Source of the DNA: Candidatus Thorarchaeota archaeon
GTDB lineage: Archaea; Asgardarchaeota; Thorarchaeia; Thorarchaeales; Thorarchaeaceae
Assembly: GCA_003345545.1 (NCBI GenBank)
Contig: PRDH01000058.1
Span: 1-35,987, forward strand
Reading direction: 5' to 3'
DNA: 35,987 nt
Part shown: piece by piece, positions 3,731-22,509 of the stretch
Layout: every line of letters starts with the position of its first letter
Numbering within the stretch: position 1 is the first letter of the stretch
Translations under genes and position numbers: made by a program
The notes under the pieces: generated by a model
Seen by the model: only the letters and a program-made list of their open reading frames with translations
Told to the model about the DNA's origin: nothing
Databases searched by the model: none

Positions 3731-3734
3731 TTTG

Positions 3735-4199
3735 ATGGTTGATGATGTAATTTACAGTATTCCCCGTGAAACATATAGCCTGCCCCAAGCGTCATGGTTG
3801 TCAGGTGCAGCAGCTGGTCTTCAGATTATGGGCCCGAGGACCCCTGAGTGGCTTTGGGGTGATTTCATCCATGATATCTATGATATGATACGGACGATTG
3901 GTGAAGTTGTACCTGCGGAGCCTGGTACTGCCCCTACTTATGGCGACGGCCTTGTGGGAAGTGCATTCGACGCTCTTGGGGGCTATGTCAGCATTGTAGG
4001 TGAAGTATGTCCTGAAGGGCTCTATTTTCGTGTGCCTCTGGCTCGCCAGGAGAACGTAGCTCGTTTGCTGAATGGCTTGAGACTCTTTAGATCGCATGGT
4101 GAAATCGTTATTCCTGTGTACGATCTTCCAGCCTTCTCGCGTCTTGTTCCTCTGGAAGGACCGGTTGCTGAGCAGCTTGAAGATGAGGTGACTCCATGA
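3735..4199 (+). CDS. Hypothetical protein (~154 aa)
   Basis: SD upstream (start TTG 3732 or ATG 3735). Stop overlaps the radA start (ATGA, 4196-4199) with GAGGTGA SD. Confidence 0.75.
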   Translation: MVDDVIYSIPRETYSLPQASWLSGAAAGLQIMGPRTPEWLWGDFIHDIYDMIRTIGEVVPAEPGTAPTYGDGLVGSAFDALGGYVSIVGEVCPEGLYFRVPLARQENVARLLNGLRLFRSHGEIVIPVYDLPAFSRLVPLEGPVAEQLEDEVTP

Positions 4200-5287
4200 C
4201 CGAACTCGAAGCTGTGCCTGGCGTAGGCCCTGCAGTGGCCAAGAGACTTCGGGAGGCTTATGTTACCACAGCTGAGCTTCTTGCAGTGCAGAATCCTGTA
4301 GAGCTCCTGAAGCGTACAAAGTTAGGAGAGGGTACTACTGACAAGATAATCAGGAATGCTCGTCAGCTCATCGGCAAGTTCGGCTTTCGGTCTGGGCTTG
4401 AAATCGAGCAGGAAATGGCAACCAAACCTCGGCTGAAGACTGGGGTCGGCAAGATTGACGAATGCCTTCTTGGCGGCATTGAAGTCGGGTCCATCGTCGA
4501 GATATTTGGGCCTGCCCGGGGCGGAAAGACACAGTGGGTCTCGCAGCTTGCAGTGATGGCCCAACTCCCACATAAACAGGGCGGGCTTGAAGGTAGGGTT
4601 CTCTGGCTTGATACTGAGTCAAGTTTCAAACCTTGGGTGATTAGAGCGAATGCGGTCAGGCAGGGCCTGGATCCCGATATCGCGCTCGGCAACATTGGGC
4701 GTGCTGAGATTGTGCTTTCTGGCCAGATTGCTGAGATTTTTGAGAGCATTCCTCAGCTCTGCGCAGAACAGAACTACAAGCTTGTTGTGATTGACAGTTT
4801 CACTGGTCTCTTTCGTGCCGAGTACACAGGGCTCGAGTCTATGCGTGTCCGACAACAGGACATGAATACTCTTCTCAATCACATGCGACGTACAGCTGCT
4901 GCAACAGAAGCAATCTTTGCATATACGAACCAAGTCATGGCCAAGATTTCAAGCTACGGAGGCAATCCCAACGCGCCTGTCGGTGGGCATATCATTTCGC
5001 ATGCAAGTGACTACAGATTCTATACACGCAGGACCAAGGCTGATATTCGCAAGATCGAACTGCAGGACAACGCCGGCCTGCCAGAGTTCGATGTTGACGT
5101 GTATGTAGGCTGGGGTGGTTTCTACTCTGACTCCAAGGCAAAGAAGGAGCATGAGCCTGATGTATTAGAGTACTTCGAGAAGCGAGGGATCAACGTTCAG
5201 GAGGAGGCAGGTGCACTGGACTCCGATTCGGAAGACGAGGGGCTCGCTGCAGCGGCCGAGTCAGTCCCGGCAGGTGACGATGCGTGA
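4196..5287 (+). CDS. radA: RadA/Rad51-family recombinase (probably an additional, divergent RadA) with acidic C-terminal tail
   Basis: N-terminal HhH (LEAVPGVGPAVAKRL), polymerisation motif GFRSG, Walker A GPARGGKT, LDTESSF catalytic Glu, Walker B LVVIDSF, FRAEY..RQQ (L1), TNQV..PVGGHIISHAS (L2). Confidence 0.92.
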   Translation: MTELEAVPGVGPAVAKRLREAYVTTAELLAVQNPVELLKRTKLGEGTTDKIIRNARQLIGKFGFRSGLEIEQEMATKPRLKTGVGKIDECLLGGIEVGSIVEIFGPARGGKTQWVSQLAVMAQLPHKQGGLEGRVLWLDTESSFKPWVIRANAVRQGLDPDIALGNIGRAEIVLSGQIAEIFESIPQLCAEQNYKLVVIDSFTGLFRAEYTGLESMRVRQQDMNTLLNHMRRTAAATEAIFAYTNQVMAKISSYGGNPNAPVGGHIISHASDYRFYTRRTKADIRKIELQDNAGLPEFDVDVYVGWGGFYSDSKAKKEHEPDVLEYFEKRGINVQEEAGALDSDSEDEGLAAAAESVPAGDDA

Positions 5288-5742: not shown

Positions 5743-6355
5743 CTCCGATAGCCTTTCAGATCCCTTGTCGGCCAATAGGTCAGCGGCGTGCATTCCGCAG
5801 TGGTCGATGATCAATCTAGTCAACCTCTTGCTCAGAGAAACGCCACATAGGGTATCTGTTCTAGAGCGATGCGATGGCCCTGATCCTCAGATATTCGTCG
5901 TGACGCGCGTTGAATGGAGAGACCCTGACATCAGCAAACCATTTCTCTCGCAGTTACCTAGACTACTCTCTCTTCTCGAAACTCTTCGTGGTTCCAAGGG
6001 TGTTCCTCAGGAAGTGCACCTAGACAGTGCAGAAGGCGTCGCTGTCCACCTGCCAAGCGGTGTGAGGGCTTCTGAGTTACCTGGTGAACCCAAGAAGGCA
6101 GTCCATCTTCTGATGTCTATTGTAGAAACCTCTCTAGAAAATCTGCATTCAACAATGAGCGACGTTGAATCTTGGTTCTGGAAGGCTGCTCGCCAGAAGG
6201 GATTCAGTCCTGAAATTGTTGAGAAGATGGGGAAGAAGGAGGCACACTACGACTCTGTTGATCTGATGTGGCGGTTTCAACGACTCCTCCAGAAGTACTT
6301 CTCATTGAGGTTCACTATTCATCGGAGCGAGTCTTGCCTAAGATTGGAGGAATAA
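5735..6355 (+). CDS. Hypothetical protein (206 aa)
   Basis: 8-nt overlap with previous gene and GAGGT SD. Its end carries the GGAGG SD of xpd. Confidence 0.75.
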   Translation: MASSDSLSDPLSANRSAACIPQWSMINLVNLLLRETPHRVSVLERCDGPDPQIFVVTRVEWRDPDISKPFLSQLPRLLSLLETLRGSKGVPQEVHLDSAEGVAVHLPSGVRASELPGEPKKAVHLLMSIVETSLENLHSTMSDVESWFWKAARQKGFSPEIVEKMGKKEAHYDSVDLMWRFQRLLQKYFSLRFTIHRSESCLRLEE

Positions 6356-6357
6356 AG

Positions 6358-8310
6358 GTGAGCGTGGCGACAACTGACCCTATGGTCTATTTCCCCTACT
6401 CTCCCCGGCAACATCAGGAGAGAGCTGTTAGCCTAGCTGCAAAGGCTTTCTCCTCGAATACGGTCGGACTTCTTCATGCAGATTGTGGGATTGGCAAGAC
6501 AATCGCGGTGCTCTCCGGATATCTTGCCTGTCGAGCTACTGATCAATTCGCTCATCTTTTTGCTCTGACGCGCACTCATTCCCAATCTAAGGTCTTTGAA
6601 ACAGAGCTTGAAGTGCTCAGAAGTGCAGTGCCTCATTTGGCTGCCACCACGATGGTATCTCGAGTCCATGTCTGCCCCATTCGTCATCAGATGGAATCGC
6701 TCAGTCATACAGGTTTCATGCGAGCGTGTGCAAGTATGATAAAGACTGAGCAATGCATCCACTATTGGAATCTCTACAAGCGAAGCAGTACTGATGGCAA
6801 GATTACCATCAATGAGGATGGACGCAGGGCAATAGGGGACCTACTTGATACTGGGGTTGTCACGAGAGAGAGAGCTGAAGAACGAGCGGAGCAGGATGGC
6901 TACTGTCCCTACGAGATTATGCGGTGGTGCGCTCGTGGAAGTATGGTAGTCATCGGACCTTATTCCTATATATTCAAGTCACGAGTCCGAGAGGCTCTCC
7001 TCTCATCCTTAGGGCTTTCTCTCAATGAAGTGGACCTGCTCATCGATGAGGCTCACAATCTATCAGGGCACGTCCTTGATGCTGAAACATCGGTTTTAAG
7101 CAACGACGATATCCGATGGCTGAAAGAGAATAGCCAGTTCGTGGTCCGAGAAACAGGCGTATCGTGGATTCGCGAGGCCATAGACTTTCTTTGGGAGAGC
7201 ATGATGCTTCACCTGGACACTATGCAGAAACAGACGGAGCGTCCTCTTGACAAATGGGATGTTGCACCTAGGTTCATCAAGGATGAGGACCTAGACATAT
7301 TGCATCACGTGGGCAGACCAGAGCTTGGTGACCCTGAGAATGCCAGTCTTGTTGAAACACCTCTTGATAGACTCATTGAGTTCCTCTACACTGCTCAGAG
7401 AGCTGCACGAAGCGATGGTTGGCACGTTACCCTGCATGTGGATCGTTCATTCTCTGATGACTTACCAAAATCAACCTCTTCTCTCATGATACAACCACTT
7501 AACTCTGCAGGATTGACTGCTCCAATTCTCAGAGGAGCTAGATCTGCTGTACTGATGTCTGGGACTCTCCGCCCGCTGGACTATTACGAGCATCTTTTGG
7601 GCGTGCCAAACGCAATATCAGAAGACCTCACAAGCCCGTACCCCCGAGGAACACGATTAGTACTCATCGATAAGATGCTGAACACGCGGTACAAGGAACG
7701 CAACCCAGAATTATGGCGAGATGTTGCAGCAAGGATCTCTGCTGCTCTCTGTACCATGCCTGCGAATAAGAGTGCGCTCATTGCATTTCCATCCTACAAA
7801 ATGATGAGCGAGGTCATGAGCTACAGCATAGATACTGGATTTCGGGAAGCATTAGTAGAAACGCGAGATGCCATGCTCGAAACCGTTGCCCAAGCGATTT
7901 CACAAGGCCCATGCGCCATGTTCTGCGTATATGGCGGCAAATTCTCGGAAGGAATCGATCTTGTCAGTGCAGGTTCCAGTATGATTGACCTGATCGTCGG
8001 TGTAGGCATACCATTCAGCCCTCCGACAAGCTATCAGACTGCCCTACAGAGCTGGTATGATAGCAAGTTCGGGCATGGCATGGGCTACTACTATGCATCT
8101 GTCGTACCATCAATCAGACAGGTCGCACAGTTGGTTGGAAGACTGAGACGCTCTCCAAATGATTCTGGTGTGATTGTTCTTCTTGATAGTAGGTTTCTAC
8201 AGCATCTGTCGGTCTTTGGGGATGAAATCGTATCGGACATCTGGCCATACAATGACCCCGCTGAAATGAAGGAAGCAATCACACAATTCAATCGGGTGAG
8301 GCTGCGATAG
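6358..8310 (+). CDS. xpd: XPD/Rad3/DinG-family 5'-3' Fe-S DNA helicase
   Basis: Q motif PYSPRQHQ, Walker A ADCGIGKT, Ia TRTHSQ, four Fe-S Cys (HVCP, RACA, EQCI, YCPY), DEAHN, MSGTL, FPSY, GKFSEGID, QLVGRLRR..D. GTG start 7 nt after GGAGG. Confidence 0.9.
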   Translation: MSVATTDPMVYFPYSPRQHQERAVSLAAKAFSSNTVGLLHADCGIGKTIAVLSGYLACRATDQFAHLFALTRTHSQSKVFETELEVLRSAVPHLAATTMVSRVHVCPIRHQMESLSHTGFMRACASMIKTEQCIHYWNLYKRSSTDGKITINEDGRRAIGDLLDTGVVTRERAEERAEQDGYCPYEIMRWCARGSMVVIGPYSYIFKSRVREALLSSLGLSLNEVDLLIDEAHNLSGHVLDAETSVLSNDDIRWLKENSQFVVRETGVSWIREAIDFLWESMMLHLDTMQKQTERPLDKWDVAPRFIKDEDLDILHHVGRPELGDPENASLVETPLDRLIEFLYTAQRAARSDGWHVTLHVDRSFSDDLPKSTSSLMIQPLNSAGLTAPILRGARSAVLMSGTLRPLDYYEHLLGVPNAISEDLTSPYPRGTRLVLIDKMLNTRYKERNPELWRDVAARISAALCTMPANKSALIAFPSYKMMSEVMSYSIDTGFREALVETRDAMLETVAQAISQGPCAMFCVYGGKFSEGIDLVSAGSSMIDLIVGVGIPFSPPTSYQTALQSWYDSKFGHGMGYYYASVVPSIRQVAQLVGRLRRSPNDSGVIVLLDSRFLQHLSVFGDEIVSDIWPYNDPAEMKEAITQFNRVRLR

Positions 8311-8312
8311 AT

Positions 8313-8918
8313 ATGATGCAACTACACGCTTTTCACGAATTGAAACTGGTCGGCCTGACCATTCTGACAGTCATCTTTGTGCTCAAGATCTACCTTGCTC
8401 CTGGAGACCTTGTAGGTATTATTACGGCTGGCGCTGGGCTAGCCGCATATATCGCAGCATTAGTAATTCATCTTTCATCTTCATCCAGCCCACGGGTTCT
8501 CTGGGATGCCAAGCACGGCGCGGTGGCCATCATTCGTTCTTGGACAGTCGAGGTTGCCTCAGCAAAGATCCTCTCAAGTGTTCCTATTGGCATTGACCTA
8601 AGTCATTCCGGTCGAAAGGTACTCCAGTCTATGTACACTCGATTCTTGGACAAGCCCGGGGGAACATTAGTCTTTTTCATCACCAGACCGATAGGCGACC
8701 AATCAACAAGAGTGGGCTATCTAGTTCGGAGAAGGGGATTGAGGCTCTGGAACAGCTTAGGTCAGGTTGACAACCTTGCAAAGATAATCAGTGCTGACTC
8801 CATGATTCTGGAGCGGTCGATGAGAGCTGCCTATCCTCATCTTCCTGTGGTCAACGCTAGCTTCGCCGATATCATAACATCCACAGCAGGAGGTCTTGAG
8901 ACCCATGTCGCTGTCTGA
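8313..8918 (+). CDS. Membrane protein (2 N-terminal TM helices + soluble domain)
   Basis: Hydrophobic segments LVGLTILTVIFVLKIYL and LVGIITAGAGLAAYIAALVIHL; starts 2 nt after the xpd stop. Confidence 0.75.
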   Translation: MMQLHAFHELKLVGLTILTVIFVLKIYLAPGDLVGIITAGAGLAAYIAALVIHLSSSSSPRVLWDAKHGAVAIIRSWTVEVASAKILSSVPIGIDLSHSGRKVLQSMYTRFLDKPGGTLVFFITRPIGDQSTRVGYLVRRRGLRLWNSLGQVDNLAKIISADSMILERSMRAAYPHLPVVNASFADIITSTAGGLETHVAV

Positions 8919-9204
8919 ACAACGCTCTGGAATCGAAATTCCCGAAGGTGTGAATCCAGAGGCAATCATGAACTTCTTGGAAGTAGGTCACAACTATCAT
9001 TGGACCGTGCTTACGCGTCTGCCTCTCTTTGTCGCTCACGGTGCACCTGCGCTGGGCTCCGGCAATATGCCTGAGATTCTATTAGCTGGCAATAGATCTA
9101 TGATCATCGCAGGTGGTGACACTGCATACGTCGAGAGAATACGCCACGTGCTCGAGATGTTGCAGCGTCTATCACAGCGAATGATTCTCACAAAGGAGGG
9201 TTGA
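8905..9204 (+). CDS. Small hypothetical protein (99 aa)
   Basis: ATG 8905 preceded by GGAGGT; 14-nt overlap with upstream gene; its end carries the GGAGG SD of the next gene. Confidence 0.7.
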   Translation: MSLSEQRSGIEIPEGVNPEAIMNFLEVGHNYHWTVLTRLPLFVAHGAPALGSGNMPEILLAGNRSMIIAGGDTAYVERIRHVLEMLQRLSQRMILTKEG

Positions 9205-9208
9205 GAGA

Positions 9209-11569
9209 ATGCCGAAACGCTTGATACTTGGGACAAGACCTGAATCCGATCCTCTGAAGGAGTTTTCTGACTCTGACTACTCCTCTTCCTCTTCTACCGA
9301 GATACGATGGGACGAGAGGACTCAGAGTCGCTCTCTTGCTCTACCTGCTTTCATCTCTCTCATCTGTATAGCCGTGGGGTTGTATGACCCGCTCATCCCG
9401 CTCATTGCCGGAATTGCAGTTGTTGCGCTGGTCCTATTGATGCCCTCCGTCCGAACGAACTTGGACAAGATTGTCTTGCCAGAAGGCTTTTGGATTGAGG
9501 TGAAGCAAGCGGACATGCTTTGCTCTGTCGCTGATGACCTCATGGGCCTGAGCTGCCGGACACCCAAAGGTGTCCATCATCTAGTCGGAATACAGCTCGG
9601 AGCTGCTGACTCCATTCTGCTTGGTGATGTGAGTTCGTTTGTGCGAGCGGTTGATGGCCCGTTTGGTTTTTGCCTGACCGTGATGATGCGACCCGAGAGA
9701 GTCCAACGTGCGCTGGATGAGGAACGCATTGCTGATGCAGTTGAAGACTATCTCAATGCGATACCCAAAGGGGAGGTTGAAGCCTATGTTCTTCGGCGAG
9801 GGGGCCTGTGGATTTCTCAGGTGACGGCTGTGGGCCAATTCAAAAACCCCACTGATGGCGATACCTTCGAGTGCGCCGTAAAGGCATCGATTCCCATGAC
9901 CAAATGGAAGCGCATCCCGTCTAAAGCTCTGCAAAAAGGTACCGAACAGCTTGCCGCTAACGACCAATCCAAATCGTTCTATGCAGTTGGTTCAGAACTC
10001 TCTGAATGGCTAGTGCAGCTTCGGTCAGAGCTGGCTTCCGAGGTCGGAAGAAGTATTCCCGGTCAGTTTCTTGCCCCGATCAGAGGGAGATCCGATGACT
10101 ATCGCTTAGGCGTGACCATCAATCCGGATACCTTACAGTCAGGACCGCCAGTAGGCCTCTCTCACCCTGAACTGGAGGATGGCTTGCTGATATGCGGAGG
10201 AGCTGCCGAATCAAGAATGAGAATCATTGCGCTACTGACATCCGAGCTCCTGCGTGGTGGCAAGCGCATTATCATCTTTACAAACAACAGAGCATCTATT
10301 GGTTATGCTCGGCTCTCGGAAGGAGCTGTGCATCTTGAACTCGGAAGGGACTTCGTGCTCAATCCAGTCGACTCTGAGGGTGTCCCAAGAAGCGACTATG
10401 TACCACTTCTCATCTCTTCCCTTGAAGTCGTGGCAGCCACGGACCTGAGGGGTGCCGCTGAGCTTGAGCTGGCAATATCGCGTGCCGTCACTCTTGGAAA
10501 TGCAACACTGGCTGATGTTCAACTCAACAATGGCTTTGAAGAGGCTATTTCAGCTTCTCCTGATACCTCGAAACCACTCGAATCAACGCCTTCGAACAAG
10601 TCGAAGACTGGAATGGAGGCAGTTCGTTCATTGCATCAAGGCTCTGCCGCCAAGGCATTCTATGGCACTCAGACAGTTCCCACTTCTAGACTCACAGAAT
10701 CTACGCTGACTGTTGTGAGAGTTCTTCTGGGCTCTGCATCTCTCGAGCACTTTGCTTGGAATGTGATTTCAATCAAGCTGGCTGGCCTGCGCCCGGACCC
10801 CAATCTAGTGGTGATTCTTGATGGACCGGAGAACATGCGAGTGAGGAATCGAACCTTCATGAAGCACGACTCGCTTAGTGAGCGTCTTCTTGAAAACATG
10901 AAGAAGAGAGGTCCAGTCGTAGTAGCATTGGAGCATCCTGCAGACATGGCTGCAGGAGCTATCGGTGTTTTGGCTTCGTGCGTGTCACTAAGGCTGCGCG
11001 AGGCAGCAGACATCAGTATGGCTTCCGACATATTGGGCCTGAATGTGATTACGACTCCCTTGCATACTAAAGCCCGTATCTCTCCGAGAGAATCGTCATA
11101 TCTTCGAGTAATGGAAGATGACACTGCGCTCCTTGTGCATGATGGGACTGAGAGTTGTCAACCTATTAGACTCGACCCAGCTCCAGAACTGACACCGGAG
11201 AGTGATACAGAGCAGGACTCCGAACGGATTGGCACCCTGCTATCATCTGAGGACACGAGCACAGCACCGAATCAAGGGCCTTTGCTTGATAGAGTTTCTG
11301 CGGGCAGTACTATTCTTGCTATCAGGGTCCTGAAGTTACTTGAGAGATACGAACCGTTGACTCAGGAGGCTGTACGTCGATTCATAGTGGCTAGTGGTTC
11401 AGAGAATGATCCTGACGTAGAGGCTGTCCTTGCGAGGCTTGAGCACGCCAGCATGATTCTCCGCGGTCATGAGGTCCACAGTGGGGTATCGTATACAAAC
11501 TACAGAATCACGATGAAAGGAAGCATGGCACTTCGTCAGACTGAGGGTATGGAGGGCGCAATTGTATGA
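9209..11569 (+). CDS. Membrane-anchored HerA/VirB4/FtsK-fold protein with degenerate Walker motifs (putative pseudo-ATPase) and C-terminal wHTH
   Basis: 2 N-terminal TMs. HerA-like order: YRLG..PVGL, GLLICGGAAESR (eroded Walker A), RIIIF, LGRDFVLNPVD, VVILDGPEN (eroded DEAH), MKKRGPVVVALEHPADM (cf. GRKYG..ASQRP), LRL...D....LG, DTALL. C-terminal LARLEHASMI...YRITMKG wHTH. Confidence 0.7.
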   Translation: MPKRLILGTRPESDPLKEFSDSDYSSSSSTEIRWDERTQSRSLALPAFISLICIAVGLYDPLIPLIAGIAVVALVLLMPSVRTNLDKIVLPEGFWIEVKQADMLCSVADDLMGLSCRTPKGVHHLVGIQLGAADSILLGDVSSFVRAVDGPFGFCLTVMMRPERVQRALDEERIADAVEDYLNAIPKGEVEAYVLRRGGLWISQVTAVGQFKNPTDGDTFECAVKASIPMTKWKRIPSKALQKGTEQLAANDQSKSFYAVGSELSEWLVQLRSELASEVGRSIPGQFLAPIRGRSDDYRLGVTINPDTLQSGPPVGLSHPELEDGLLICGGAAESRMRIIALLTSELLRGGKRIIIFTNNRASIGYARLSEGAVHLELGRDFVLNPVDSEGVPRSDYVPLLISSLEVVAATDLRGAAELELAISRAVTLGNATLADVQLNNGFEEAISASPDTSKPLESTPSNKSKTGMEAVRSLHQGSAAKAFYGTQTVPTSRLTESTLTVVRVLLGSASLEHFAWNVISIKLAGLRPDPNLVVILDGPENMRVRNRTFMKHDSLSERLLENMKKRGPVVVALEHPADMAAGAIGVLASCVSLRLREAADISMASDILGLNVITTPLHTKARISPRESSYLRVMEDDTALLVHDGTESCQPIRLDPAPELTPESDTEQDSERIGTLLSSEDTSTAPNQGPLLDRVSAGSTILAIRVLKLLERYEPLTQEAVRRFIVASGSENDPDVEAVLARLEHASMILRGHEVHSGVSYTNYRITMKGSMALRQTEGMEGAIV

Positions 11570-13758
11570 ATGTGATTTCGGATGTGACCTCACAAGTCAC
11601 AAAACTACTCAGTCAGGCTGGGATGAAACCCCGGGGTATTCAGACCGAGGCAATCAACAGAGGTCTCTTGGAGGGAGAGAGCATCATGGTCTCCTCTCCA
11701 ACAGGCTCTGGCAAGACATTATGCGGTGAGATTGCACTTCTGAGAGCAGCTGCCTCCGGAAAGAAAGGACTGTTTCTCGTGCCATTACGAGCTCTTGCAG
11801 TTCAGGTATTCAGAACGATGAGAGAAAGATACGAGCACTTGGGCATCTCCATCGGACTGAGCACAGGTGATTTTCAAGACAATGGAGATGGGCTCGCTGC
11901 GAATGATATCATCGTCACGACGTACGAACGTGCAGATTCACTCTTGCGAAGCAGAAGTAGTTGTCTCTCGGAGGTTGGCACGATTGTCATCGATGAAATT
12001 CAAACGCTCTCTGAAACTGGCCGAGGAGCTCGTCTTGAGAGCTTCATTATTCGGGCAAAGCGAAGCATTCAAGACCTTCAGATTGTGGCACTATCCGCCA
12101 CAACAGGTGCTCCCGAGGAACTTGCTGAGTGGCTGGGATGTCGTCTTGTAATCTCAGACGAACGCCCTGTTCCTCTTGTGTATCGAGTAATCACAGCTAG
12201 TGACAAGGTTCTCACGATCAGGCACTTGGTGATGACCACCGTTCAAGCGAATGGACAGGCAATCATCTTTCACAGGACTCGTCGGGAAGCTGAAGCGGAG
12301 GCTAGACGACTCGCCGATGATGTGGGGCGCCAGTTCACTTCTGATGAGAAGACGCGCCTTGATCACGAGTTGAACTCAGTTGAGAATTGGTATGTGCCCC
12401 TCTCGTCAGATCTTAAGACCCTTCTACACAATGGCGTCGCATTTCATCATGCAGGTCTCGGCTTCAATGGTCGGCGAATTGTTGAGCGATTGTTCGATGA
12501 AGGATTGGTCCGCGTCATTTGTGCCACGACAACATTGTCAGCCGGAATGGACCTGCCAGCAAGAACCGTGATACTCTCCAACTTCAAGTCTCCTGCTGAC
12601 CATAGAAGATTCCTGTCAGCAAATACGGTCCATCAGATGCTGGGGAGGGCAGGTCGTCCTACTCATGACAAGATAGGATTCGGAATCATCATTGGAAGCA
12701 GCACCGGTGAGAGTGAGGAGGCAAAACGCCGGTACTTCGAAGTCACTGAAGATGCGACTTCAGGAAAGGAAGTTCTATCTCCCAGATATGATCGTATCAA
12801 CAGCGCACTTGCCCACCCAGACACTCTTGCTGAACAGCTTCTTGTTGCTCTCGATATGATTTCCCCAGCATCGATTGAAGATGTCGAGAATGGCTTGCTT
12901 GGTGAATCCTTTTTGGTCTTCTGTGCAATTCGAGACTCAAAGGCTCCCATGAGGGTTCTGCAGTTGGGTGAAATCTCGGCGGCTTCGGTCTTGGAGCAGC
13001 ATGCCCTCCTTGAAACCATTCAGACTGCCCGCAAGGACTTACTTGGCAAGACGTCACTTCGTGAGAAGAACGAGACAGTAATTGGCGGGATTGTTACGAT
13101 GCTTGATGGGGGGCAATTCACCTGTCGCTTCTCGGTACGTCTTTCATCATCGGGCGTTGTTGAAGGTCCAATGTGCTCGTGTGGCTCACCCTTGTCAGAG
13201 AGCGGCATTCTGTGCTATCATCTAGTGACCCTAGGAATGGCTGCTGCCAGAGACCTGGGCAATCTGGCTGATTACGTCATTCCTCTCTCACTCTCTGAAT
13301 CGAGCCCTCTGGGTCTGCTGATACGCCTTGGGCTCGTCGAGGGTGATATCAATGGCAAGATTAGACCTACACGTCTTGGTCGGGCCGTGAGCAGGCTCTA
13401 TCTACGGATCCCCACAGTTCGAGAAACCCTTGCAATGCTCCCTTCGACTGATGACGTTGAGTCGCTCTTATGGCTCTTGAGGCACGTTGTTTCAATTGAA
13501 ACAGGGATGTCACTCGGTGACGGATTTGATAATTTGATCAGCTATCTTGTGACGACCGAAACCTCGATAGAAGACTTGGCGCACCAGTTTGAGCTAGGCA
13601 TCGGCGATGTTTATGGCTTGCTGGACACTTCTAGGTGGCTTCTCCACGCCATTTCTGCCTTAGCAGATTTGGGAGGTCTTGAGAAAGCAACTGAGATAGC
13701 CAAGGGCCTTTGTGAGGCGTTAGATCGACGACTGACAAACAATGTAGAGGAGGACTAA
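11566..13758 (+). CDS. hel308: Hel308/Hjm (Ski2-like) DNA helicase with inserted SWIM Zn finger, lacking C-terminal HhH domain
   Basis: PRGIQ, SPTGSGKT, VPLRALA, TTYE, DEIQ, LSAT, RPVPL, GVAFHHAGL, ATTTLSAGMDLPA, QMLGRAGRP, PTRLGRAVSRLYL, GDVYGLLDTSRWLL ratchet helix. CSC-x10-CYH at 13174-13221. ATGA overlap. Confidence 0.85.
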   Translation: MNVISDVTSQVTKLLSQAGMKPRGIQTEAINRGLLEGESIMVSSPTGSGKTLCGEIALLRAAASGKKGLFLVPLRALAVQVFRTMRERYEHLGISIGLSTGDFQDNGDGLAANDIIVTTYERADSLLRSRSSCLSEVGTIVIDEIQTLSETGRGARLESFIIRAKRSIQDLQIVALSATTGAPEELAEWLGCRLVISDERPVPLVYRVITASDKVLTIRHLVMTTVQANGQAIIFHRTRREAEAEARRLADDVGRQFTSDEKTRLDHELNSVENWYVPLSSDLKTLLHNGVAFHHAGLGFNGRRIVERLFDEGLVRVICATTTLSAGMDLPARTVILSNFKSPADHRRFLSANTVHQMLGRAGRPTHDKIGFGIIIGSSTGESEEAKRRYFEVTEDATSGKEVLSPRYDRINSALAHPDTLAEQLLVALDMISPASIEDVENGLLGESFLVFCAIRDSKAPMRVLQLGEISAASVLEQHALLETIQTARKDLLGKTSLREKNETVIGGIVTMLDGGQFTCRFSVRLSSSGVVEGPMCSCGSPLSESGILCYHLVTLGMAAARDLGNLADYVIPLSLSESSPLGLLIRLGLVEGDINGKIRPTRLGRAVSRLYLRIPTVRETLAMLPSTDDVESLLWLLRHVVSIETGMSLGDGFDNLISYLVTTETSIEDLAHQFELGIGDVYGLLDTSRWLLHAISALADLGGLEKATEIAKGLCEALDRRLTNNVEED

Positions 13759-13763
13759 CAGTA

Positions 13764-15452
13764 TTGGAAACTCGTTTGATTAGAACGAATGAGGTTGATG
13801 AAGAAACAACGGAAAAAGGAACGACCCAGAGTTCCAATAATACTGGCGTTTTGGAAACTCTGAAACTCACCGGTCATATCACCACGGACTATCCAAATGG
13901 ATTGACAGTAGGGGTCAAACTGGGGTCTGTTCCGGGAACTCGAGGCGTGCACGTCGACGTCGTATATGCCTTGGACTTGCGAAGAGCTACATTTGGAAAG
14001 GGTGGGCTTGCCATCCGAGCTGCAGTCCTGGAAACCATAAGTCGAGACCTCGACAAGGTTCTGAATGATGTTGGACTGGGTGAACTCTTTCATGAACATG
14101 CAGTTTTGACTCCGTGGGGTCACCTACGACTGCCGTTGTTGCAGGGCGCGTCACATGGGTCTCTGTCTCTGATGCATGAAACTCGGACCGTGTATGTCAT
14201 CGTTGAGAATGCAAAGCCTACGTTCGACCTCTCCTGGCTTACAGATACCGGCAGAATAGTCACTGCTGACCAGTTCGCTCTCATTAGTCAGAGTGATTCC
14301 CGTTTGAAGCTCTCAGATTTGAAGAAGAGCGTTGGGAGTGAAAAGTGGCAGCTTCTTGAAATGGGTTTGGCAAAGGGCTGGTTTGGTATCCTTGCTCTGA
14401 TCTCTCTCATGATAGGTCTATCGACATCATTCGCTGTGCTCCTTGCAGGTTCAGGTTCGTTCATCATGCCTGCACTAGTAAGCCTGGCGTCTGGTATAGT
14501 GAGCGGCTGGCTGCTACACTCCTCGAGAGCCTGCATTTCGGCATTTCAGGAAAGACTGATCAGAGAACAGGAGCAACTTCGCGAATTAGGCGACTCCGCT
14601 CGAATAAGGTGCTCTATTATGGAAAACAAGGATAGGCTTCAACTCATTGCCGACCTCAACTTCATTGTTTCGCCTCTTGTGGCCGCTGTGGGTACGGCCA
14701 TTGCCAAAGGGGACGTTGATGCAGCAGTCAGTGTTGCTTGTTCTATTCTTGATGAATGTGTCAGATTGGCTCCCCACCCCTCTGACGCATCTCCTGTGAT
14801 TCGCGGAGACGATGGCCTGCGCCATTTCATAGGGCTATTCGAGCATCTAGGCGGAAACATAGAGGAGGTGAGTCTTGCGCTCGCATATGTCGGCCTCACA
14901 GGACACCTGACTAAACGAATAACATTCGGCGAAGCAGCTGCACATTTGACAGAGTTGAACAACGCCCTCTATGACATTGGGGCACTCAGACCCAGTATCA
15001 AAGAAGCCTTGGATGACCGTCTCAACATGGTAGCACTCAAAGAAACTGTGGATGAGATAGACAAAGAGACTGGGAGTGCCGAGAAGCCTACCCTTGCGTC
15101 AAGGGCAAAGATTGATGAAAAGGGCGTGCGCGACGAGCCGCGACCGGAAGAAGCAGCACCTCTCGAGCACTCCGATAGCCTCACTGAGGATGACGAACTT
15201 CATGATCAGATTCGACAAGCCTCTGTTGAGGTATCTCCAGAAAGTGAACCAGATGCTCCGGTCGATTCTGGTACAAAGATATCTGACCCGACCGAGGAAG
15301 TGACCATTGTCGCTACTGACATTATTACTGGGAGAATGAAGAAACGGAAGAGTAAACCTGCTGAACCAGGGCAGCTTCTTCTAATTGAGGACTTTGAGTA
15401 TACAGAATCAGGCAGTGAAGCTAGCGAGGAGCGTGAATCTGCTGGTGTCTAA
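13764..15452 (+). CDS. Membrane protein (2 central TM helices, helical region, acidic disordered C-terminus)
   Basis: TTG start after GAGGAGG. TMs WFGILALISLMIGLSTSFAVLLAG and FIMPALVSLASGIVSGWLL. E/D/P-rich last ~130 aa. Confidence 0.75.
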   Translation: METRLIRTNEVDEETTEKGTTQSSNNTGVLETLKLTGHITTDYPNGLTVGVKLGSVPGTRGVHVDVVYALDLRRATFGKGGLAIRAAVLETISRDLDKVLNDVGLGELFHEHAVLTPWGHLRLPLLQGASHGSLSLMHETRTVYVIVENAKPTFDLSWLTDTGRIVTADQFALISQSDSRLKLSDLKKSVGSEKWQLLEMGLAKGWFGILALISLMIGLSTSFAVLLAGSGSFIMPALVSLASGIVSGWLLHSSRACISAFQERLIREQEQLRELGDSARIRCSIMENKDRLQLIADLNFIVSPLVAAVGTAIAKGDVDAAVSVACSILDECVRLAPHPSDASPVIRGDDGLRHFIGLFEHLGGNIEEVSLALAYVGLTGHLTKRITFGEAAAHLTELNNALYDIGALRPSIKEALDDRLNMVALKETVDEIDKETGSAEKPTLASRAKIDEKGVRDEPRPEEAAPLEHSDSLTEDDELHDQIRQASVEVSPESEPDAPVDSGTKISDPTEEVTIVATDIITGRMKKRKSKPAEPGQLLLIEDFEYTESGSEASEERESAGV

Positions 15453-16128
15453 TGGACCGCTGATGTACGCGCTCGGTCTTGGAGGCTTGATTCACCTGTG
15501 GGGAGATGCAGGATCGGGCAAGACACTTTTCGCTGTTGCGCTTGCCTGCGATGTTTCCAAGAATCATCGGGTTGAATGGATCAATACTGATGCGAAGAAG
15601 AGTTTCGTGTCTCATCTCAAGAAGAATGCAGTCGCTTCAGGCGGCAAAATGGAGAACATCACAGTCACATTCACTGAGGATCAGGCAGAGCTATGTACGC
15701 TTATTGAAGGACTACCTAGCGCGATTGCTGGTGTTTCTCTAGTTATCATTGACCCAATCACACGAGTCCTTGACCTGGCTCGCGATAATCCAATCCTATG
15801 GGGTCGTGAGATTATCGAGGACGTATTACCGACGCTGACAGGTATTGTGAGTCAAAACAACATCGATTTCATCATCACTAGCGAGAGCCGCATGATGCCG
15901 GACTCAACTAATCGCGCAGTCCATCACAACTCGATATCAAGGTGGGCCGACCATGATCTCTGCATTACTCGCAACACGGGCAGTCCTCATTCGCAGGTAT
16001 CAAGATTCTCCGAGAACGGAATGAAAGAACTTGCTTCGATGCGGATGGATAGTCGAGGGGTGATTGAAGTCATACCACAAATGGTTCTGCCGACTGCATC
16101 AGGAGGGGTGAATGAACTTGTTTGGTAA
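15433..16128 (+). CDS. Short RecA/Rad51-fold paralog (RadB-like) with intact Walker A
   Basis: IHLWGDAGSGKT, VEWINTD, Walker B LVIIDPIT, FIITSE. No N-terminal HhH and no RadB KHR motif. Start is uncertain (GTG 15433 or 15445). Confidence 0.8.
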   Translation: MNLLVSNGPLMYALGLGGLIHLWGDAGSGKTLFAVALACDVSKNHRVEWINTDAKKSFVSHLKKNAVASGGKMENITVTFTEDQAELCTLIEGLPSAIAGVSLVIIDPITRVLDLARDNPILWGREIIEDVLPTLTGIVSQNNIDFIITSESRMMPDSTNRAVHHNSISRWADHDLCITRNTGSPHSQVSRFSENGMKELASMRMDSRGVIEVIPQMVLPTASGGVNELVW

Positions 16129-17086
16129 TGTTCTGACGAAGATGATCGTGCTTGTCGTGGGCGGAGCGATCGTTATCGCTGCCGGCGCAGAATTGCTGGC
16201 GTCGGTGGCTTCTGTAGTACTAGCATTTCGACTTGGCGACTTCGTACCACTTCTTGCTATAGCTGTGTTGACAATAGTCATTCAGACACTCACCAATCAT
16301 GTTGCCTATGAGTCTCGCGGGTTCATTCTCATGACAGCGCTAGCTTATGCTATCACTGGTTATCTTGCTTTCACTGTCTTCCTGATAGCTCTTCCCTACG
16401 GTCTGATTGTATCGTTTCTGGCAAGTGGAGCGGTGTGCGTGATATCATCGATATCTCGTAAGCAGAAGCTAGGCATATACTGGAAGCAAGTCATGCAGTC
16501 ACTCAGTCACTCGCAGAACGGCCACCATGGGCTGCCCAATAGGCAAGTCCCTTTGGGCGATGGGACTTCCTTCAAGATGAATTCGTTCAATACTGTGGTG
16601 ATTCTGGAGGAAGGCAGCAGAGAAAGGATTGTTCAGTTGCTACGAGAACGCCCGCTCTTGCCAGTTTCATTCACACATTACGAAGACTGTGATGTCATAT
16701 TCATCGCTGATGAAAATGATCCTATGCGATGTGAACAAGTCATGAAACTCCTGAAGGACTCCAGCATCGGAGTAAAGGGTCCTGCGTCACCATTGCTTGC
16801 TGAGGCTGTGCAGATGGTCCCCATACTTGATTCTCGGAATGGTCTGAAGTTCGAGGACTACCGGCTTACACGTGACGAGAAGACAATCAGCAGTCTCCTT
16901 GTTCAGGCGCCATCGCGTATGACGGTCTTTCCTTCACCCCTCGGGCTTGGCATACTGATTCCCGCCCCGGAGGTGTCAGGAATGAACGTCGAACGCCTCA
17001 AGCGAGGATGTGAAGCTGATATCCTACTAAATCGAGAGTACTCACATCTTGAGGAGGTCGAAAAGTCAATTGAGAGCACCACTTGA
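16112..17086 (+). CDS. Polytopic membrane protein (~4 N-terminal TM helices + cytoplasmic domain)
   Basis: First ~115 aa form about four hydrophobic stretches followed by the basic RKQK. SD GGAGGGGTGA; 17-nt overlap with previous gene. Confidence 0.75.
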   Translation: MNLFGNVLTKMIVLVVGGAIVIAAGAELLASVASVVLAFRLGDFVPLLAIAVLTIVIQTLTNHVAYESRGFILMTALAYAITGYLAFTVFLIALPYGLIVSFLASGAVCVISSISRKQKLGIYWKQVMQSLSHSQNGHHGLPNRQVPLGDGTSFKMNSFNTVVILEEGSRERIVQLLRERPLLPVSFTHYEDCDVIFIADENDPMRCEQVMKLLKDSSIGVKGPASPLLAEAVQMVPILDSRNGLKFEDYRLTRDEKTISSLLVQAPSRMTVFPSPLGLGILIPAPEVSGMNVERLKRGCEADILLNREYSHLEEVEKSIESTT

Positions 17087-17786
17087 GTCACTTGCGACAG
17101 CAACCGAATCGCTGTTCCGACTACATCCCAGAATATTGAATGATACCATAGGGAAGTTGTTTCTTCCTCAGCAGGTTAGTCTCTTTCACGGACGAGAACG
17201 TGCGCCGCTCAGCATACTCGCTCACACAATAGCGGTTTCTGCTGCCAGAATTGAAAACGCAAGTTGTGCATTCTTGGACTCAGGAACGAACTATTGCCCA
17301 GCGCTCATTCGAGCACTCTGCGATTCAAAGAAAGAGTCAGCAGAACTACTGAAGAGAATCGTTGTGGGGCAGGTCTTCGGATTGGATGACGTTGTTGAGA
17401 AGGTTCAACTACTCTATGATATGGGCAACATTTCCTTAATCGTTCTTGATAGTATCACTGGCGCCCTGAACCTATCAGGAGCTCCCGGCAGCATCGGCCG
17501 TCAGAGAACACTCTTTGGCACCCTGGATGCCATTCGACACGCAAACAATTACCTGAATTCTCATGTCATGATTACTGACCATTCATCGCAAGACTGGACA
17601 TCTGGGGAGCCAACTCCCATTGGCGGGAATATTCTCTCGCATGCAGTCGACAGCGTGGTGCTTGTCGATAGATTGCGTCAAGGCGAAGAGCTCGTTCGTA
17701 TACTGATTGAACGAAGCTCATCTCCGACAGCAGCTCTTGGCGTTATAGTCAAAGCTGGACCGAAGGGAATCAGAAGCATCAGGTGA
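17070..17786 (+). CDS. Rad51-paralog-like protein with inactivated Walker A
   Basis: VSLFHGRERAPLS (no GKT), FLDSGTNY, LKRIVVGQVF, Walker B LIVLDSIT, RQRTL, VMITDH, PIGGNILSHA (close to RAD51 PIGGNIIAHA). TTG start after GAGGAGGT. Confidence 0.8.
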   Translation: MRAPLESLATATESLFRLHPRILNDTIGKLFLPQQVSLFHGRERAPLSILAHTIAVSAARIENASCAFLDSGTNYCPALIRALCDSKKESAELLKRIVVGQVFGLDDVVEKVQLLYDMGNISLIVLDSITGALNLSGAPGSIGRQRTLFGTLDAIRHANNYLNSHVMITDHSSQDWTSGEPTPIGGNILSHAVDSVVLVDRLRQGEELVRILIERSSSPTAALGVIVKAGPKGIRSIR

Positions 17787-17791
17787 GTTCC

Positions 17792-18787
17792 ATGGGTGTG
17801 AAGAACTGGGGCGATGATGTCATTCCGTGGAAGTGGATCTCAGCATCCTTCATCACTCCTGGAGCGATTGCCATAGATGTTCCAAACTATGTCACTCGAA
17901 GACTTGTCGTGATGCGTGAGAATGGTAAGCAAGAGGGCAGAATACCCCTGAATCACGTTGGTTTGTTTCTTAGCCTCCTCAAAGTTGCATTGGGTGTTCA
18001 CGTTCTTCCCGTCTTCATCTTTGATGGTCCTCCGGAATTACAGAAACGCAATCCGAATCCCGAACTAGTTGAGAAGGCTTCAGGTTTCTACAGAACATTC
18101 CAACAGGAAGGAGATCCCTTTAACGAAGAGATGTCTGCTGAGCTATGGGGAAGTCCTGCGCTCAGAGCGTATTTTGCTGCTGCGCATTTGAAAGACCTTG
18201 GGAGTATTGTGGGCGTTCCGATGCTTACAGCGCCTTCTGAAGCAGAGATGTTTGCAGCGGTTCTCTGTAGGGATGGAGCTGTAAGGACAGTTGTGTCAAA
18301 TGATGCTGATGCTCTGCTCTTTGGGAGCCCTCATGTCACGAAACAAATGCAGCTCTCATCAGGTCGCATTCTCTCTGTTGCATTGACCGAATTTGAGAAA
18401 CATCTTGGCCTCGACATCGAGCTCCTACGAGATCTTGCGGTCGTGTCAGGATGTGATTTTCATAAGAAGGGTGTTAGGGGTATTGGAGTGAAACGTGGAA
18501 CGGTCCTTCTTCGGCGATATGGAGGTCTCGAAAGATTGCTCAAGGCTCATGGCTACTCCCATACAGAGCGGACTGAGTTCATCGAGGCGAGGGAGGTATT
18601 TGATGAGGCTTCCTATATGTCCGCCAAAGATTTGTGTCTGAAACTGAACCCTCCGCTTGTGTCCAAGGTCATTAGATCCCTTGAGACTATCATGTCCTCG
18701 GAACGAGCAGAGACTATCGCCAGCAAGATAGTTACCCTATGGCGAGGTTTTAGCAACAGGCAGTCAACATTGGAGCAATGGCTCTAG
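17792..18787 (+). CDS. fen: FEN1/XPG-family structure-specific nuclease (FEN1 paralog) with PIP box
   Basis: MGV start, IAID, FIFDG, APSEAE, SNDADALLFG, SGCDF..GVRGIG (H3TH), C-terminal QSTLEQWL PIP box; SD AGGTGA. Confidence 0.88.
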   Translation: MGVKNWGDDVIPWKWISASFITPGAIAIDVPNYVTRRLVVMRENGKQEGRIPLNHVGLFLSLLKVALGVHVLPVFIFDGPPELQKRNPNPELVEKASGFYRTFQQEGDPFNEEMSAELWGSPALRAYFAAAHLKDLGSIVGVPMLTAPSEAEMFAAVLCRDGAVRTVVSNDADALLFGSPHVTKQMQLSSGRILSVALTEFEKHLGLDIELLRDLAVVSGCDFHKKGVRGIGVKRGTVLLRRYGGLERLLKAHGYSHTERTEFIEAREVFDEASYMSAKDLCLKLNPPLVSKVIRSLETIMSSERAETIASKIVTLWRGFSNRQSTLEQWL

Positions 18788-22327: not shown

Positions 22328-22509
22328 GTCCTATACGAAACAATCGATTAATCATGTCCCGGGTCGATCCTTTCCCCGACGAACCACACCGCTTTCTACC
22401 ACGCTGGACCTGCATCTTGATGCAATTCCTGACCCGTCTTTTCCTAGAAGGTCGACCCGTCGGACACCCTCTCATCAAGCTCGAAGAATCTGGAGTGGAT
22501 ATCCTATGA
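22324..22509 (+). CDS. Small hypothetical protein (61 aa) coupled to both neighbours
   Basis: ATGA overlap at both ends (22324-22327 and 22506-22509); fills the gap exactly. Confidence 0.6.
   Translation: MSPIRNNRLIMSRVDPFPDEPHRFLPRWTCILMQFLTRLFLEGRPVGHPLIKLEESGVDIL

What the first reader, a model, noticed from the sequence alone, without database searches (positions are those of the whole stretch)
12860..13330. SWIM zinc finger inserted in a Hel308 helicase next to two Rad51 paralogs: possible archaeal proto-Shu / HELQ-paralog module
Seen: an insertion of over 100 aa in the winged-helix region contains beta-strands (VIGGIV, FTCRFSV) followed by C-S-C-x10-C-Y-H (13174-13221) and a hydrophobic helix, the SWIM signature. 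Known: eukaryotic Shu complexes pair a SWIM protein (Shu2/SWS1) with Rad51 paralogs (Csm2-Psy3, SWSAP1), and HELQ binds the RAD51 paralog complex BCDX2. Inference: this fusion, co-operonic with two short Rad51 paralogs and RadA, is a Rosetta-stone link between those modules. Caveats: the SWS1-type CxHxxA Ala is Thr here (CYHLVT), and SWIM is also fused to unrelated SNF2 helicases.
Basis: partly seen in the sequence, partly recalled or inferred. Interest (0 to 1): 0.88.

Follow-up and report, generated by a model that had tools for sequence, protein, structure and literature searches.

The report
SWIM zinc finger inside Asgard Hel308 paralog
A second, non-canonical Hel308-type DNA helicase of Asgard archaea carries a SWIM zinc-finger module spliced into its winged-helix domain and is conserved next to extra copies of recombinase-family genes, which points to a dedicated recombination machine that is not described in the literature searched here; a link to the eukaryotic Shu complex is still only a guess.

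Summary
ORF 11566-13758 (730 aa) is a Ski2/Hel308-type helicase with a ~108-aa insert (aa 470-577) in its winged-helix domain. The insert carries C-S-C-x10-C-Y-H exactly at 13174-13221.

The four ligands are present in all 106 full-length Thorarchaeota orthologs. The insert folds confidently (pLDDT 88). Its only solved-structure match with Z>=5 is the SWIM region of ZSWIM8, and its ESM Atlas neighbours are clusters carrying Pfam SWIM. Pfam SWIM misses this protein but scores above threshold at the aligned position in a 34%-identical Baldrarchaeia homolog.

New here:
- This is not the organism's canonical Hel308, which lies on another contig without the insert.
- It belongs to a SWIM-bearing paralog family found in 11 of 20 sampled Asgard families.
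- A short P-loop RecA-like gene of the same family as the window's 15433 product lies within a few kb in five other Asgard families (directly adjacent in two). None was found beside 30 canonical Hel308 genes.
- The operon's "RadA" is also a paralog.

The Shu/HELQ-BCDX2 reading remains inference. The insert resembles generic SWIM, not SWS1, and CxHxxA does not discriminate.

No earlier finding on other DNA was shown.

The parts
11566..13758 (+). SWIM-Hel308 paralog gene (730 aa, P0001). Its ATG overlaps the stop of the upstream 786-aa gene.
   Evidence: PDB Hel308 structures 2zj2/2p6r match at E about 1e-70 over aa 1-390. NCBIfam Hel308 equivalogs score far below their cut-offs.
11566..12750 (+). 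RecA1-RecA2 SF2 motor (aa 1-395). Motifs I, III and VI are intact; motif II reads DEIQ.
   Evidence: Pfam DEAD 7.9e-32 and Helicase_C 3e-9. Motifs are conserved in 104-106 of 106 orthologs.
12751..12972 (+). Winged-helix domain, first three helices (aa 396-469).
   Evidence: Alignment A3. In the aa 395-600 model, the winged-helix part (the two halves flanking the insert) matches the Hel308 winged-helix domain of 2va8_B: Z 7.0, rmsd 2.7, 66 residues aligned.
12973..13296 (+). SWIM module inserted in the winged-helix domain (aa 470-577): two helices, a four-stranded sheet, a zinc knuckle, then two helices.
   Evidence: AF2 pLDDT 87.8. ZSWIM8 9rwz_M: Z 5.9, 89 residues aligned, next hit Z 3.6. 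ESM Atlas neighbours carry PF04434, TM 0.54-0.57. The insert is absent from the canonical Hel308.
13174..13221 (+). Predicted zinc ligands C537, C539, C550, H552 (CSC-x10-CYH).
   Evidence: Invariant in A1; present in 106 of 106 orthologs. The same columns hold C/C/C/H in all 12 SWIM-type helicases of A3, which come from several Asgard families.
13297..13380 (+). Winged-helix domain, last helix and wing (aa 578-605).
   Evidence: phmmer aligns aa 585-614 to Pfu Hel308 463-492. Alignment A3.
13381..13755 (+). Shortened ratchet domain 4 (aa 606-730). HhH domain 5 is absent.
   Evidence: PF21280 matches aa 665-712 only, at 24.7 bits (27.3 bits in the six-frame search). A3 shows no HhH tail, unlike the canonical copy and homologs L015, L057 and L059.
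15433..16128 (+). Short RecA/RadB-like paralog with an intact Walker A (GDAGSGKT). The ORF is open from 15385.
   Evidence: AAA_25 7.4e-7 and RadB 1.7e-5. Walker A is kept in 28 of 28 orthologs. The family HMM finds a gene near the SWIM-Hel308 in 5 other Asgard families.
17070..17786 (+). Short Rad51-like paralog without a P-loop (HGRERAPLS in its place). The ORF is open from 17049.
   Evidence: Pfam Rad51 3.5e-6 and RadB 4.1e-10. The degenerate loop is conserved in 24 orthologs.
4196..5287 (+). RadA paralog of the same operon; it is not the housekeeping RadA.
   Evidence: Rad51 Pfam 177.7 bits here versus 304.9 bits for the RadA on contig C39.
17783..18787 (+). FEN1/XPG-like nuclease, last gene of the operon. 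It is also found near the SWIM-Hel308 in one other family.
   Evidence: XPG_I 3.7e-17. FEN-like genes lie 3-4 kb from the helicase in L066, L068 and L073.

Best explanation
SHOWN: the gene encodes a catalytically intact SF2 translocase of the Hel308 lineage. It is a separate, old paralog of the canonical Hel308. It has lost the HhH domain 5 and carries a SWIM-type, presumably zinc-binding, globular module inserted in a loop of its winged-helix domain. SWIM-bearing paralogs of this kind occur across Asgard archaea. They travel with extra RecA-family genes: a divergent RadA paralog and a short P-loop RadB-like protein. In one other family (three genomes) a FEN1-like nuclease is also nearby. In Thorarchaeota the set is expanded to a 15-gene operon. 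INFERRED: the helicase is the motor of a second, dedicated recombination or fork-processing pathway. The SWIM module is the adaptor that couples the motor to its co-encoded RecA-family partners, either the short paralogs or the RadA-paralog filament. In that reading it plays, on one polypeptide, the role that SWIM proteins play for Rad51 paralogs in eukaryotic Shu complexes. Loss of domain 5 (annealing or brake) would make the enzyme a dedicated translocase or unwinder whose specificity comes from the SWIM-bound partners.
For: SWIM identity:
- The motif is invariant.
- The fold model is confident.
- The only PDB chain with Z>=5 out of 48,161 is ZSWIM8 (Z 5.9, rmsd 3.6, 89 aligned, residues 114-214). 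Its SWIM domain is residues 172-208 (PMC13083262).
- ESM Atlas neighbours are PF04434 and SNF2_assoc+SWIM clusters.
- The Baldrarchaeia homolog L015 is 34% identical over its full length and scores PF04434 at 27.7 bits (cut-off 19.6) at the aligned position.

Paralog status:
- The canonical Hel308 is on contig C78 (domain 4 at 121 bits, HhH present, no insert).
- A canonical copy is found in 57 of 61 Asgard genomes.
- Canonical sequences form one clade (SH-aLRT 96) that excludes every SWIM-type sequence.

Active motor: motifs I, II, III and VI are kept in at least 104 of 106 orthologs.

Linkage:
- Every C-terminal homolog found, in 22 of 61 genomes and 10 families, has CxC..CxH at the same place.
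- The HMM of the 15433-product family scores 4e-7 to 1e-22 on a short Walker-A protein within a few kb of the SWIM-Hel308 in 7 loci from 5 other families.
- That HMM does not hit this genome's own RadA, RadA paralog or RadB.
- With equal 1.5-kb flanks, 4 of 23 SWIM-type loci and 0 of 30 canonical loci have such a neighbour.
- The RadA next to the helicase in G038, G043 and G025 is the lowest- or a lower-scoring RadA copy of its genome.

Precedent: the SWIM domain of Shu2 binds the Rad51 paralog Shu1 (PMC5727457), and HELQ binds BCDX2 (PMC13623763).
Against: No direct evidence of binding exists. The Pfam SWIM model does not detect this protein's own insert. Profile-profile comparison with unrelated Asgard SWIM domains is weak (probability 10.5%, E 0.003), although it is in register. 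In many non-Thor members the loop between the Cys pairs is basic and aromatic. That would also fit nucleic-acid contact, so the ancestral role could be DNA recognition. The second short paralog (17070 product) was found with confidence only in the Thor family. Gene neighbourhood shows a functional link between the proteins, not that the SWIM module is the contact point.
Confidence: 0.5

Rival explanations
1. The SWIM module is a nucleic-acid recognition element. It extends the winged-helix domain, which in Hel308 already contributes to substrate binding, so that the paralog recognises a particular branched substrate (fork, D-loop or flap). The co-encoded RecA paralogs act on the same DNA without touching the SWIM module.
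For: The winged-helix domain of Hel308 serves substrate recognition (PMC13623763, citing Northall 2017). The inter-Cys loop carries net charge +1 to +3 and 1-3 aromatic residues in many non-Thor members. SWIM was originally predicted to bind DNA or proteins (cited in PMC5727457). The nearest Atlas folds sit in bacterial SNF2 DNA translocases.
Against: In Thorarchaeota the loop is neutral or acidic (charge -2 to +1 in 27 orthologs) and the whole insert has net charge -2. In the two SWIM proteins with solved complexes cited here (Shu2, ZSWIM8), the domain makes protein contacts (PMC5727457, PMC13083262).
Confidence: 0.25
2. The module is mainly structural: a zinc-stabilised plug that replaces contacts lost with domain 5 and the shortened ratchet, with no partner or DNA specificity of its own.
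For: The Thor lineage lost HhH domain 5 and about 40 residues of the ratchet. The insert is compact and confidently folded.
Against: Members that keep domain 5 (L015, L057, L059) also carry the SWIM insert, so the insert predates the loss. Surface-forming positions outside the ligands are also invariant (R499, E500, R521, S523).
Confidence: 0.1
3. Strict Rosetta-stone reading: the insert is the direct evolutionary forerunner (ortholog) of eukaryotic Shu2/SWS1, and the short paralogs are forerunners of SWSAP1 or Csm2-Psy3.
For: [quoted passage not shown] 14 of 27 Thor orthologs read CxHxxA.
Against: CxHxxA is the norm in unrelated Asgard SWIM domains (14 of 16) and is not kept in the SWIM-Hel308 family (T, V, I, N, L, E in Thor; mostly K elsewhere). 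A profile search of PDB sequences found nothing. The only structural matches are ZSWIM8 and bacterial SNF2-type SWIM.
Confidence: 0.07
4. The cluster is an anti-phage defence or mobile-element module (Hachiman-like, since HamB is a Hel308-like helicase) rather than a cellular recombination pathway.
For: PADLOC HamB models hit the helicase core (2.2e-40), and a type IV CRISPR DinG model hits the XPD-like gene.
Against: Those hits cover only the generic helicase cores. No other operon protein matches any PADLOC model. The cluster is syntenic and vertically conserved in all 16 sampled genera of the family, with the same flanking genes. No relative was found on viral contigs.
Confidence: 0.03

Closest known systems
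Archaeal Hel308/Hjm (Ski2-like SF2 helicase; PDB 2zj2, 2p6r, 2va8)
   Same: RecA1-RecA2 motor (E about 1e-70), a winged-helix domain 3 with the same helix order and wing, and a ratchet-domain remnant.
   Different: About 108 aa of SWIM insert in the winged-helix domain. No HhH domain 5, and a shortened ratchet. Motif II reads DEIQ/DEVQ. It scores far below the NCBIfam equivalog cut-offs and falls outside the canonical Asgard Hel308 clade. The genome keeps a canonical copy elsewhere.
Eukaryotic Shu complex (Shu2/SWS1 SWIM protein with the Rad51 paralogs Shu1-Psy3-Csm2 or SWSAP1)
   Same: A SWIM module is functionally linked, here by conserved gene neighbourhood, to short divergent RecA/Rad51-fold proteins, one with and one without a P-loop.
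   Different: Here the SWIM is an insert in a helicase, not a small free-standing protein. No specific sequence or fold similarity to Shu2/SWS1 was found. Binding is untested. The Ala of CxHxxA is not conserved.
HELQ with the BCDX2 RAD51-paralog complex (metazoa)
   Same: A Hel308-family helicase associated with RAD51 paralogs (PMC13623763).
   Different: HELQ has no SWIM, keeps domain 5 and has an N-terminal extension. Its association is physical and was shown experimentally, whereas here it is inferred from genome context.
Bacterial SWIM-SNF2 proteins (PF08455 SNF2_assoc + PF04434 SWIM + SNF2 motor) and ZSWIM8
   Same: The best fold matches to the whole insert: sheet, zinc knuckle and helix (TM 0.54-0.57; ZSWIM8 Z 5.9). 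A SWIM module is joined to an SF2 motor.
   Different: In the SNF2 proteins the SWIM lies in a region separate from the motor, not inside a winged-helix domain. The motor family is different (SNF2 versus Ski2/Hel308). ZSWIM8 is an E3 ligase receptor.

Membership tests
SWIM zinc finger (PF04434) | CxCxnCxH signature with n about 6-25 | tested here: met
   CSC-x10-CYH at aa 537-552. Invariant in orthologs and in 23 SWIM-type helicases from other lineages, with n = 10-23.
SWIM zinc finger (PF04434) | Pfam HMM score above the gathering threshold on this protein | tested here: not met
   No hit on aa 470-590 even at E<=10. No six-frame hit in the whole genome at E<=0.01. The aligned insert of homolog L015 scores 27.7 bits against a cut-off of 19.6. 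L028, L031 and L034 score 17.7-18.3 bits by hmmscan and 22-23 bits in the six-frame search.
SWIM zinc finger (PF04434) | SWIM fold: beta-sheet ending in the CxC knuckle, with CxH at the N-terminus of a helix | tested here: met
   AF2 model. ZSWIM8 SWIM region: Z 5.9, rmsd 3.6, 89 residues, the only Z>=5 among 48,161 chains. ESM Atlas neighbours carry PF04434 in 60-80% of members, TM 0.54-0.57.
SWIM zinc finger (PF04434) | Binds one zinc ion through the Cys3His ligands | not testable with these tools
   Needs metal analysis of purified protein.
Hel308/Hjm helicase | SF2 RecA1-RecA2 core with motifs I, II, III and VI | tested here: met
   Motif II is DEIQ/DEVQ rather than DEIH.
Hel308/Hjm helicase | Winged-helix domain 3 and ratchet domain 4 | tested here: met
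   Winged-helix match to 2va8_B at Z 7.0. PF21280 partial: aa 665-712, 24.7 bits by hmmscan and 27.3 bits in the six-frame search.
Hel308/Hjm helicase | C-terminal HhH domain 5 | tested here: not met
   The protein ends 25 residues after the ratchet match. There is no HHH_5 hit, unlike L015 and the canonical copy.
Hel308/Hjm helicase | Orthology with canonical Hel308 (NCBIfam equivalog cut-off; placement in a tree) | tested here: not met
   353.8 bits against a cut-off of 887 for the best-scoring model, and 269.7 against 1200 for NF040935 (helicase_Hel308). Canonical sequences form a clade (SH-aLRT 96) without it. A canonical copy sits on contig C78.
Shu2/SWS1 family | Extended motif CXC..Xn..CXHXXA with invariant Ala (PMC6316741) | tested here: not met
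   The window protein reads CYHLVT. Ala is present in only 14 of 27 orthologs. Ala at this position is also usual in unrelated SWIM domains (14 of 16), so the feature does not discriminate.
Shu2/SWS1 family | Sequence or fold similarity to Shu2/SWS1 | tested here: inconclusive
   No PDB sequence hit with the insert profile at E<=10. Shu2 was not among the listed fold matches, which does not exclude it.
Shu2/SWS1 family | Physical complex with Rad51 paralogs | not testable with these tools
   Needs pull-down or a structure. Only gene neighbourhood is shown.

The most novel reading that the evidence does not exclude
The SWIM module physically docks the co-encoded short RecA-family paralogs (and, through them, the RadA-paralog filament) onto the helicase. 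That would give Asgard archaea a helicase-mediator machine that is the prokaryotic counterpart, and possibly the ancestor, of the eukaryotic SWIM/Rad51-paralog (Shu) and HELQ/BCDX2 couplings.
Probability: 0.15. Interest if true: 0.9.

Novelty: new variant of a known kind. Interest (0 to 1): 0.62.

Why it matters
Hel308/HELQ and the Rad51 paralogs are central but poorly understood regulators of recombination, and their prokaryotic roots are unclear. This analysis shows that Asgard archaea keep, beside the canonical Hel308 and RadA, a second module. It consists of a SWIM-bearing Hel308 paralog, a RadA paralog and a short RadB-like protein, with a FEN1-like nuclease nearby in some families. Public records name the helicase only "DEAD/DEAH box helicase". 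That gives a concrete, testable system, with small soluble proteins and clear mutants, for asking how a helicase is coupled to recombinase mediators. It also allows a test of whether the eukaryotic SWIM/Rad51-paralog partnership has an archaeal precedent. It further gives context to the second RadA clade reported in some Asgard lineages (PMC12722695).

Tried and rejected
- Pfam on the insert alone gave no family, even at E<=10.
- The PF04434 six-frame search of the genome gave no hit.
- A profile of the insert against PDB sequences gave nothing at E<=10.
- Foldseek against PDB gave nothing significant with either model; ZSWIM8 appeared only at rank 45 and rank 13.
- hhalign of the insert profile against 16 non-helicase Asgard SWIM domains gave probability 10.5% and E 0.003. 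It is in register but too weak to use alone.
- The exhaustive profile search of 1.84 billion representatives with the Thor insert returned 9 hits at E<=0.001. Six are clearly the same helicase family or fragments of it, one (P0127) was not inspected, and two are repeat proteins. It gave no view of other lineages.
- Complex prediction with the insert and both short paralogs scored 0.00, no verdict. It counts neither for nor against binding.
- The ESM Atlas search by sequence features gave no usable hit.
- The search for related loci with the pan-Asgard alignment A7 failed because no stretch was conserved enough.
- The search for related loci with A1 in genome contigs returned only Thorarchaeota-type records (28 loci). 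In viral contigs it found no relative.
- PADLOC matched only the generic helicase cores.
- Literature searches found no paper in the held library linking Hel308 or Ski2 helicases with SWIM. Godin et al. 2015 on the SWS1 SWIM domain is not held.
- I considered that the insert might be the normal state of Asgard Hel308. This was rejected because canonical insert-free copies exist in 57 of 61 genomes.
Full report
**What is there.** The finding lies in ORF 11566-13758 (+), 730 aa. This ORF is translationally coupled to the genes on either side. Residues 1-390 match solved Hel308 structures (2zj2, 2p6r, 2va8) at E about 1e-61 to 1e-71, and match Pfam DEAD and Helicase_C. Beyond residue 390, only two short pieces align with Hel308: aa 585-614 with the end of the winged-helix domain, and aa 669-705 with the ratchet. 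The offsets imply about 120 extra residues in the winged-helix region and losses further on. About 0.0008 such motifs would be expected by chance in a protein of this composition.

**Conservation.** A word-indexed search restricted to aa 395-600 found 119 relatives. All are about 730-aa helicases, and those that carry names are mostly labelled Thorarchaeota. In 27 diverse orthologs, down to 47% identity, C537, S538, C539, C550 and H552 are invariant, together with L553, L556 and G557 of the following helix. All 106 full-length orthologs carry the motif. At least 104 of the 106 keep helicase motifs I, III and VI, and motif II is always DEIQ or DEVQ. The enzyme is therefore very probably an active motor.

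**Is it SWIM?** The evidence is mixed by sequence and clear by structure and homology.
- Pfam's 38-position SWIM model does not see this insert. A profile-profile comparison with 16 unrelated Asgard SWIM domains is weak but in register.
- The insert alone folds with pLDDT 87.8 as two helices, a four-stranded sheet, a loop and two helices. The CxC lies at the end of strand 4 and the CxH at the start of the next helix.
- Against 48,161 PDB representatives, the only chain with Z>=5 is ZSWIM8 (9rwz_M): Z 5.9, rmsd 3.6 A, 89 residues, chain 114-214. The next hit scores Z 3.6. The SWIM domain of ZSWIM8 is residues 172-208 (PMC13083262).
- In the ESM Atlas, after the protein's own cluster, the neighbours have TM 0.54-0.57, 83-94 aligned residues and rmsd about 3 A. 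They include clusters carrying PF04434 (60-80% of members), SNF2_assoc+SWIM proteins and bacterial SNF2 helicases, plus two small clusters with no common Pfam family.
- A six-frame PF04434 scan of 61 Asgard genomes hit helicase-sized ORFs. One of these, L015 (NCBI: DEAD/DEAH box helicase, Candidatus Baldrarchaeia), is 34% identical to the window protein over its full length. It has the architecture DEAD, Helicase_C, SWIM (27.7 bits, cut-off 19.6), domain 4 and HhH. Its SWIM aligns column for column with the window's Cys/His.

I therefore accept the insert as a divergent SWIM module.

**It is a paralog, and the family is wide.** The same genome has a canonical Hel308 on contig C78: a 770-aa ORF with domain 4 at 121 bits, an HhH tail and no CxC..CxH. 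Searching the C-terminal half of the window protein in 61 Asgard genomes gave homologs in 22 genomes from 10 families. Every one has CxC-x(10-23)-CxH at the same place. With the Pfam-positive helicases of family f2, this makes 11 of 20 sampled families. Canonical Hel308 is present in 57 of 61 genomes as well. In a quick ML tree, with columns filled in under 60% of the rows dropped, the 19 canonical sequences form one clade (SH-aLRT 96) that excludes all 23 SWIM-type sequences. The backbone among the SWIM-type sequences is unresolved, so a single origin is neither shown nor excluded. Some members keep HhH domain 5 (L015, L057, L059). The Thor lineage and several others have lost it.

**Neighbours.** In Thorarchaeota the whole cluster from 2945 to 18787 is syntenic in distant genomes. 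Its gene order is:
- two unknown genes
- RadA-like
- two unknown genes
- XPD-like
- two unknown genes
- a 786-aa membrane protein
- the SWIM-Hel308
- a 562-aa membrane protein
- a RadB-like gene
- a 324-aa membrane protein
- a Rad51-like gene
- a FEN1-like gene

The operon RadA is a paralog: it scores 177.7 bits, against 304.9 bits for the RadA on contig C39. Of 41 family genomes searched, about 31 have an ortholog of each short paralog at the same locus. The 15433 product keeps its Walker A in 28 of 28 orthologs. The 17070 product has a conserved degenerate loop (HG-x-ER-x-PL) where the P-loop would be.

Outside Thorarchaeota, an HMM of the 15433-product family scores 4e-7 to 1e-22 on a short Walker-A protein within a few kb of the SWIM-Hel308. 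It is directly adjacent in families f11 and f18. This holds in 7 loci from 5 other families. The same HMM does not hit this genome's own RadA, RadA paralog or RadB. With equal 1.5-kb flanks, 4 of 23 SWIM-type loci and 0 of 30 canonical Hel308 loci have such a neighbour.

In the complete genome G038 the genes run in this order: an unknown gene, SWIM-Hel308, a zinc-ribbon gene, a Rad51-like gene (Pfam Rad51 1e-15), an unknown gene, TPR, FEN1-like and Roadblock. A RadA of 244 bits lies 3 kb away, while the genome's best RadAs score 338 and 332 bits elsewhere. A second RadA clade in some Asgard lineages has been reported (PMC12722695). Its link to a SWIM helicase was not found in the literature searched.

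**Interpretation.** Three things are shown: a SWIM module in a Hel308 paralog, its conservation, and its genomic coupling to RecA-family paralogs. One thing is inferred: that the SWIM module is the contact point.
- For the docking model: SWIM domains make protein contacts in Shu2-Shu1 and in ZSWIM8 (PMC5727457, PMC13083262), HELQ binds BCDX2 (PMC13623763), and the Thor insert is slightly acidic.
- For a DNA-recognition alternative: the inter-Cys loop is basic and aromatic in many other lineages, and the host domain is the substrate-recognition winged helix (PMC13623763).
- Nothing ties the insert specifically to SWS1/Shu2. The Ala of CxHxxA is the rule in unrelated Asgard SWIM domains (14 of 16) and is variable in this family. 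The fold neighbours are ZSWIM8 and bacterial SNF2-type SWIM.

**Verdict.** This is a new variant of known kinds, the Hel308 family and the SWIM domain. It defines an Asgard-wide paralogous recombination module that deserves biochemical testing. The proto-Shu reading is attractive but currently has a low probability.

Noticed in passing
L031, L034, L035, L037, L038 (sister Thorarchaeota genera); not found in this genome: A second SWIM-bearing helicase-like paralog of about 740-790 aa. It is 24% identical to the window protein and has degenerate Walker A and DExH motifs; Pfam reports only SWIM. In this genome, a search with it finds only the window gene and the canonical Hel308.
   Followed up: partly
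G012, G022, G031, G041, G043 (table): Canonical Hel308 ORFs of 1264-1289 aa in which the match is split at about residue 373 into two blocks roughly 500 aa apart. This looks like an intein or another large insertion in the motor.
   Followed up: no
window 6268-8310: The XPD-like helicase of the operon matches the PADLOC 'type IV-A CRISPR-associated DinG' model at 3.4e-73 over nearly its full length. This is probably generic XPD/DinG similarity.
   Followed up: no
L011 14278-22068, compared with window 22071-30335: In a more distant relative, the about 2,600-aa giant protein (faint Prenyltrans, MG2 and Big hits) lies inside the cluster, right after the RadB-like gene. It is followed by a RecA-like gene. 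In the window it lies 3 kb downstream.
   Followed up: no
L068 4603-7354: In genome G038 the SWIM-Hel308 / Rad51-like / FEN1-like operon also contains a TPR protein, and a Roadblock/LC7-like protein follows it.
   Followed up: no
window 11986-11997 (motif II): Motif II is DEIQ or DEVQ in all 106 Thor orthologs, where other SWIM-type and canonical Hel308 proteins have DEIH.
   Followed up: partly
window 836-2383 (-): A GH3-family gene flanks the cluster in the window and in distant relatives L010 and L011, so even the border of the neighbourhood is conserved.
   Followed up: no
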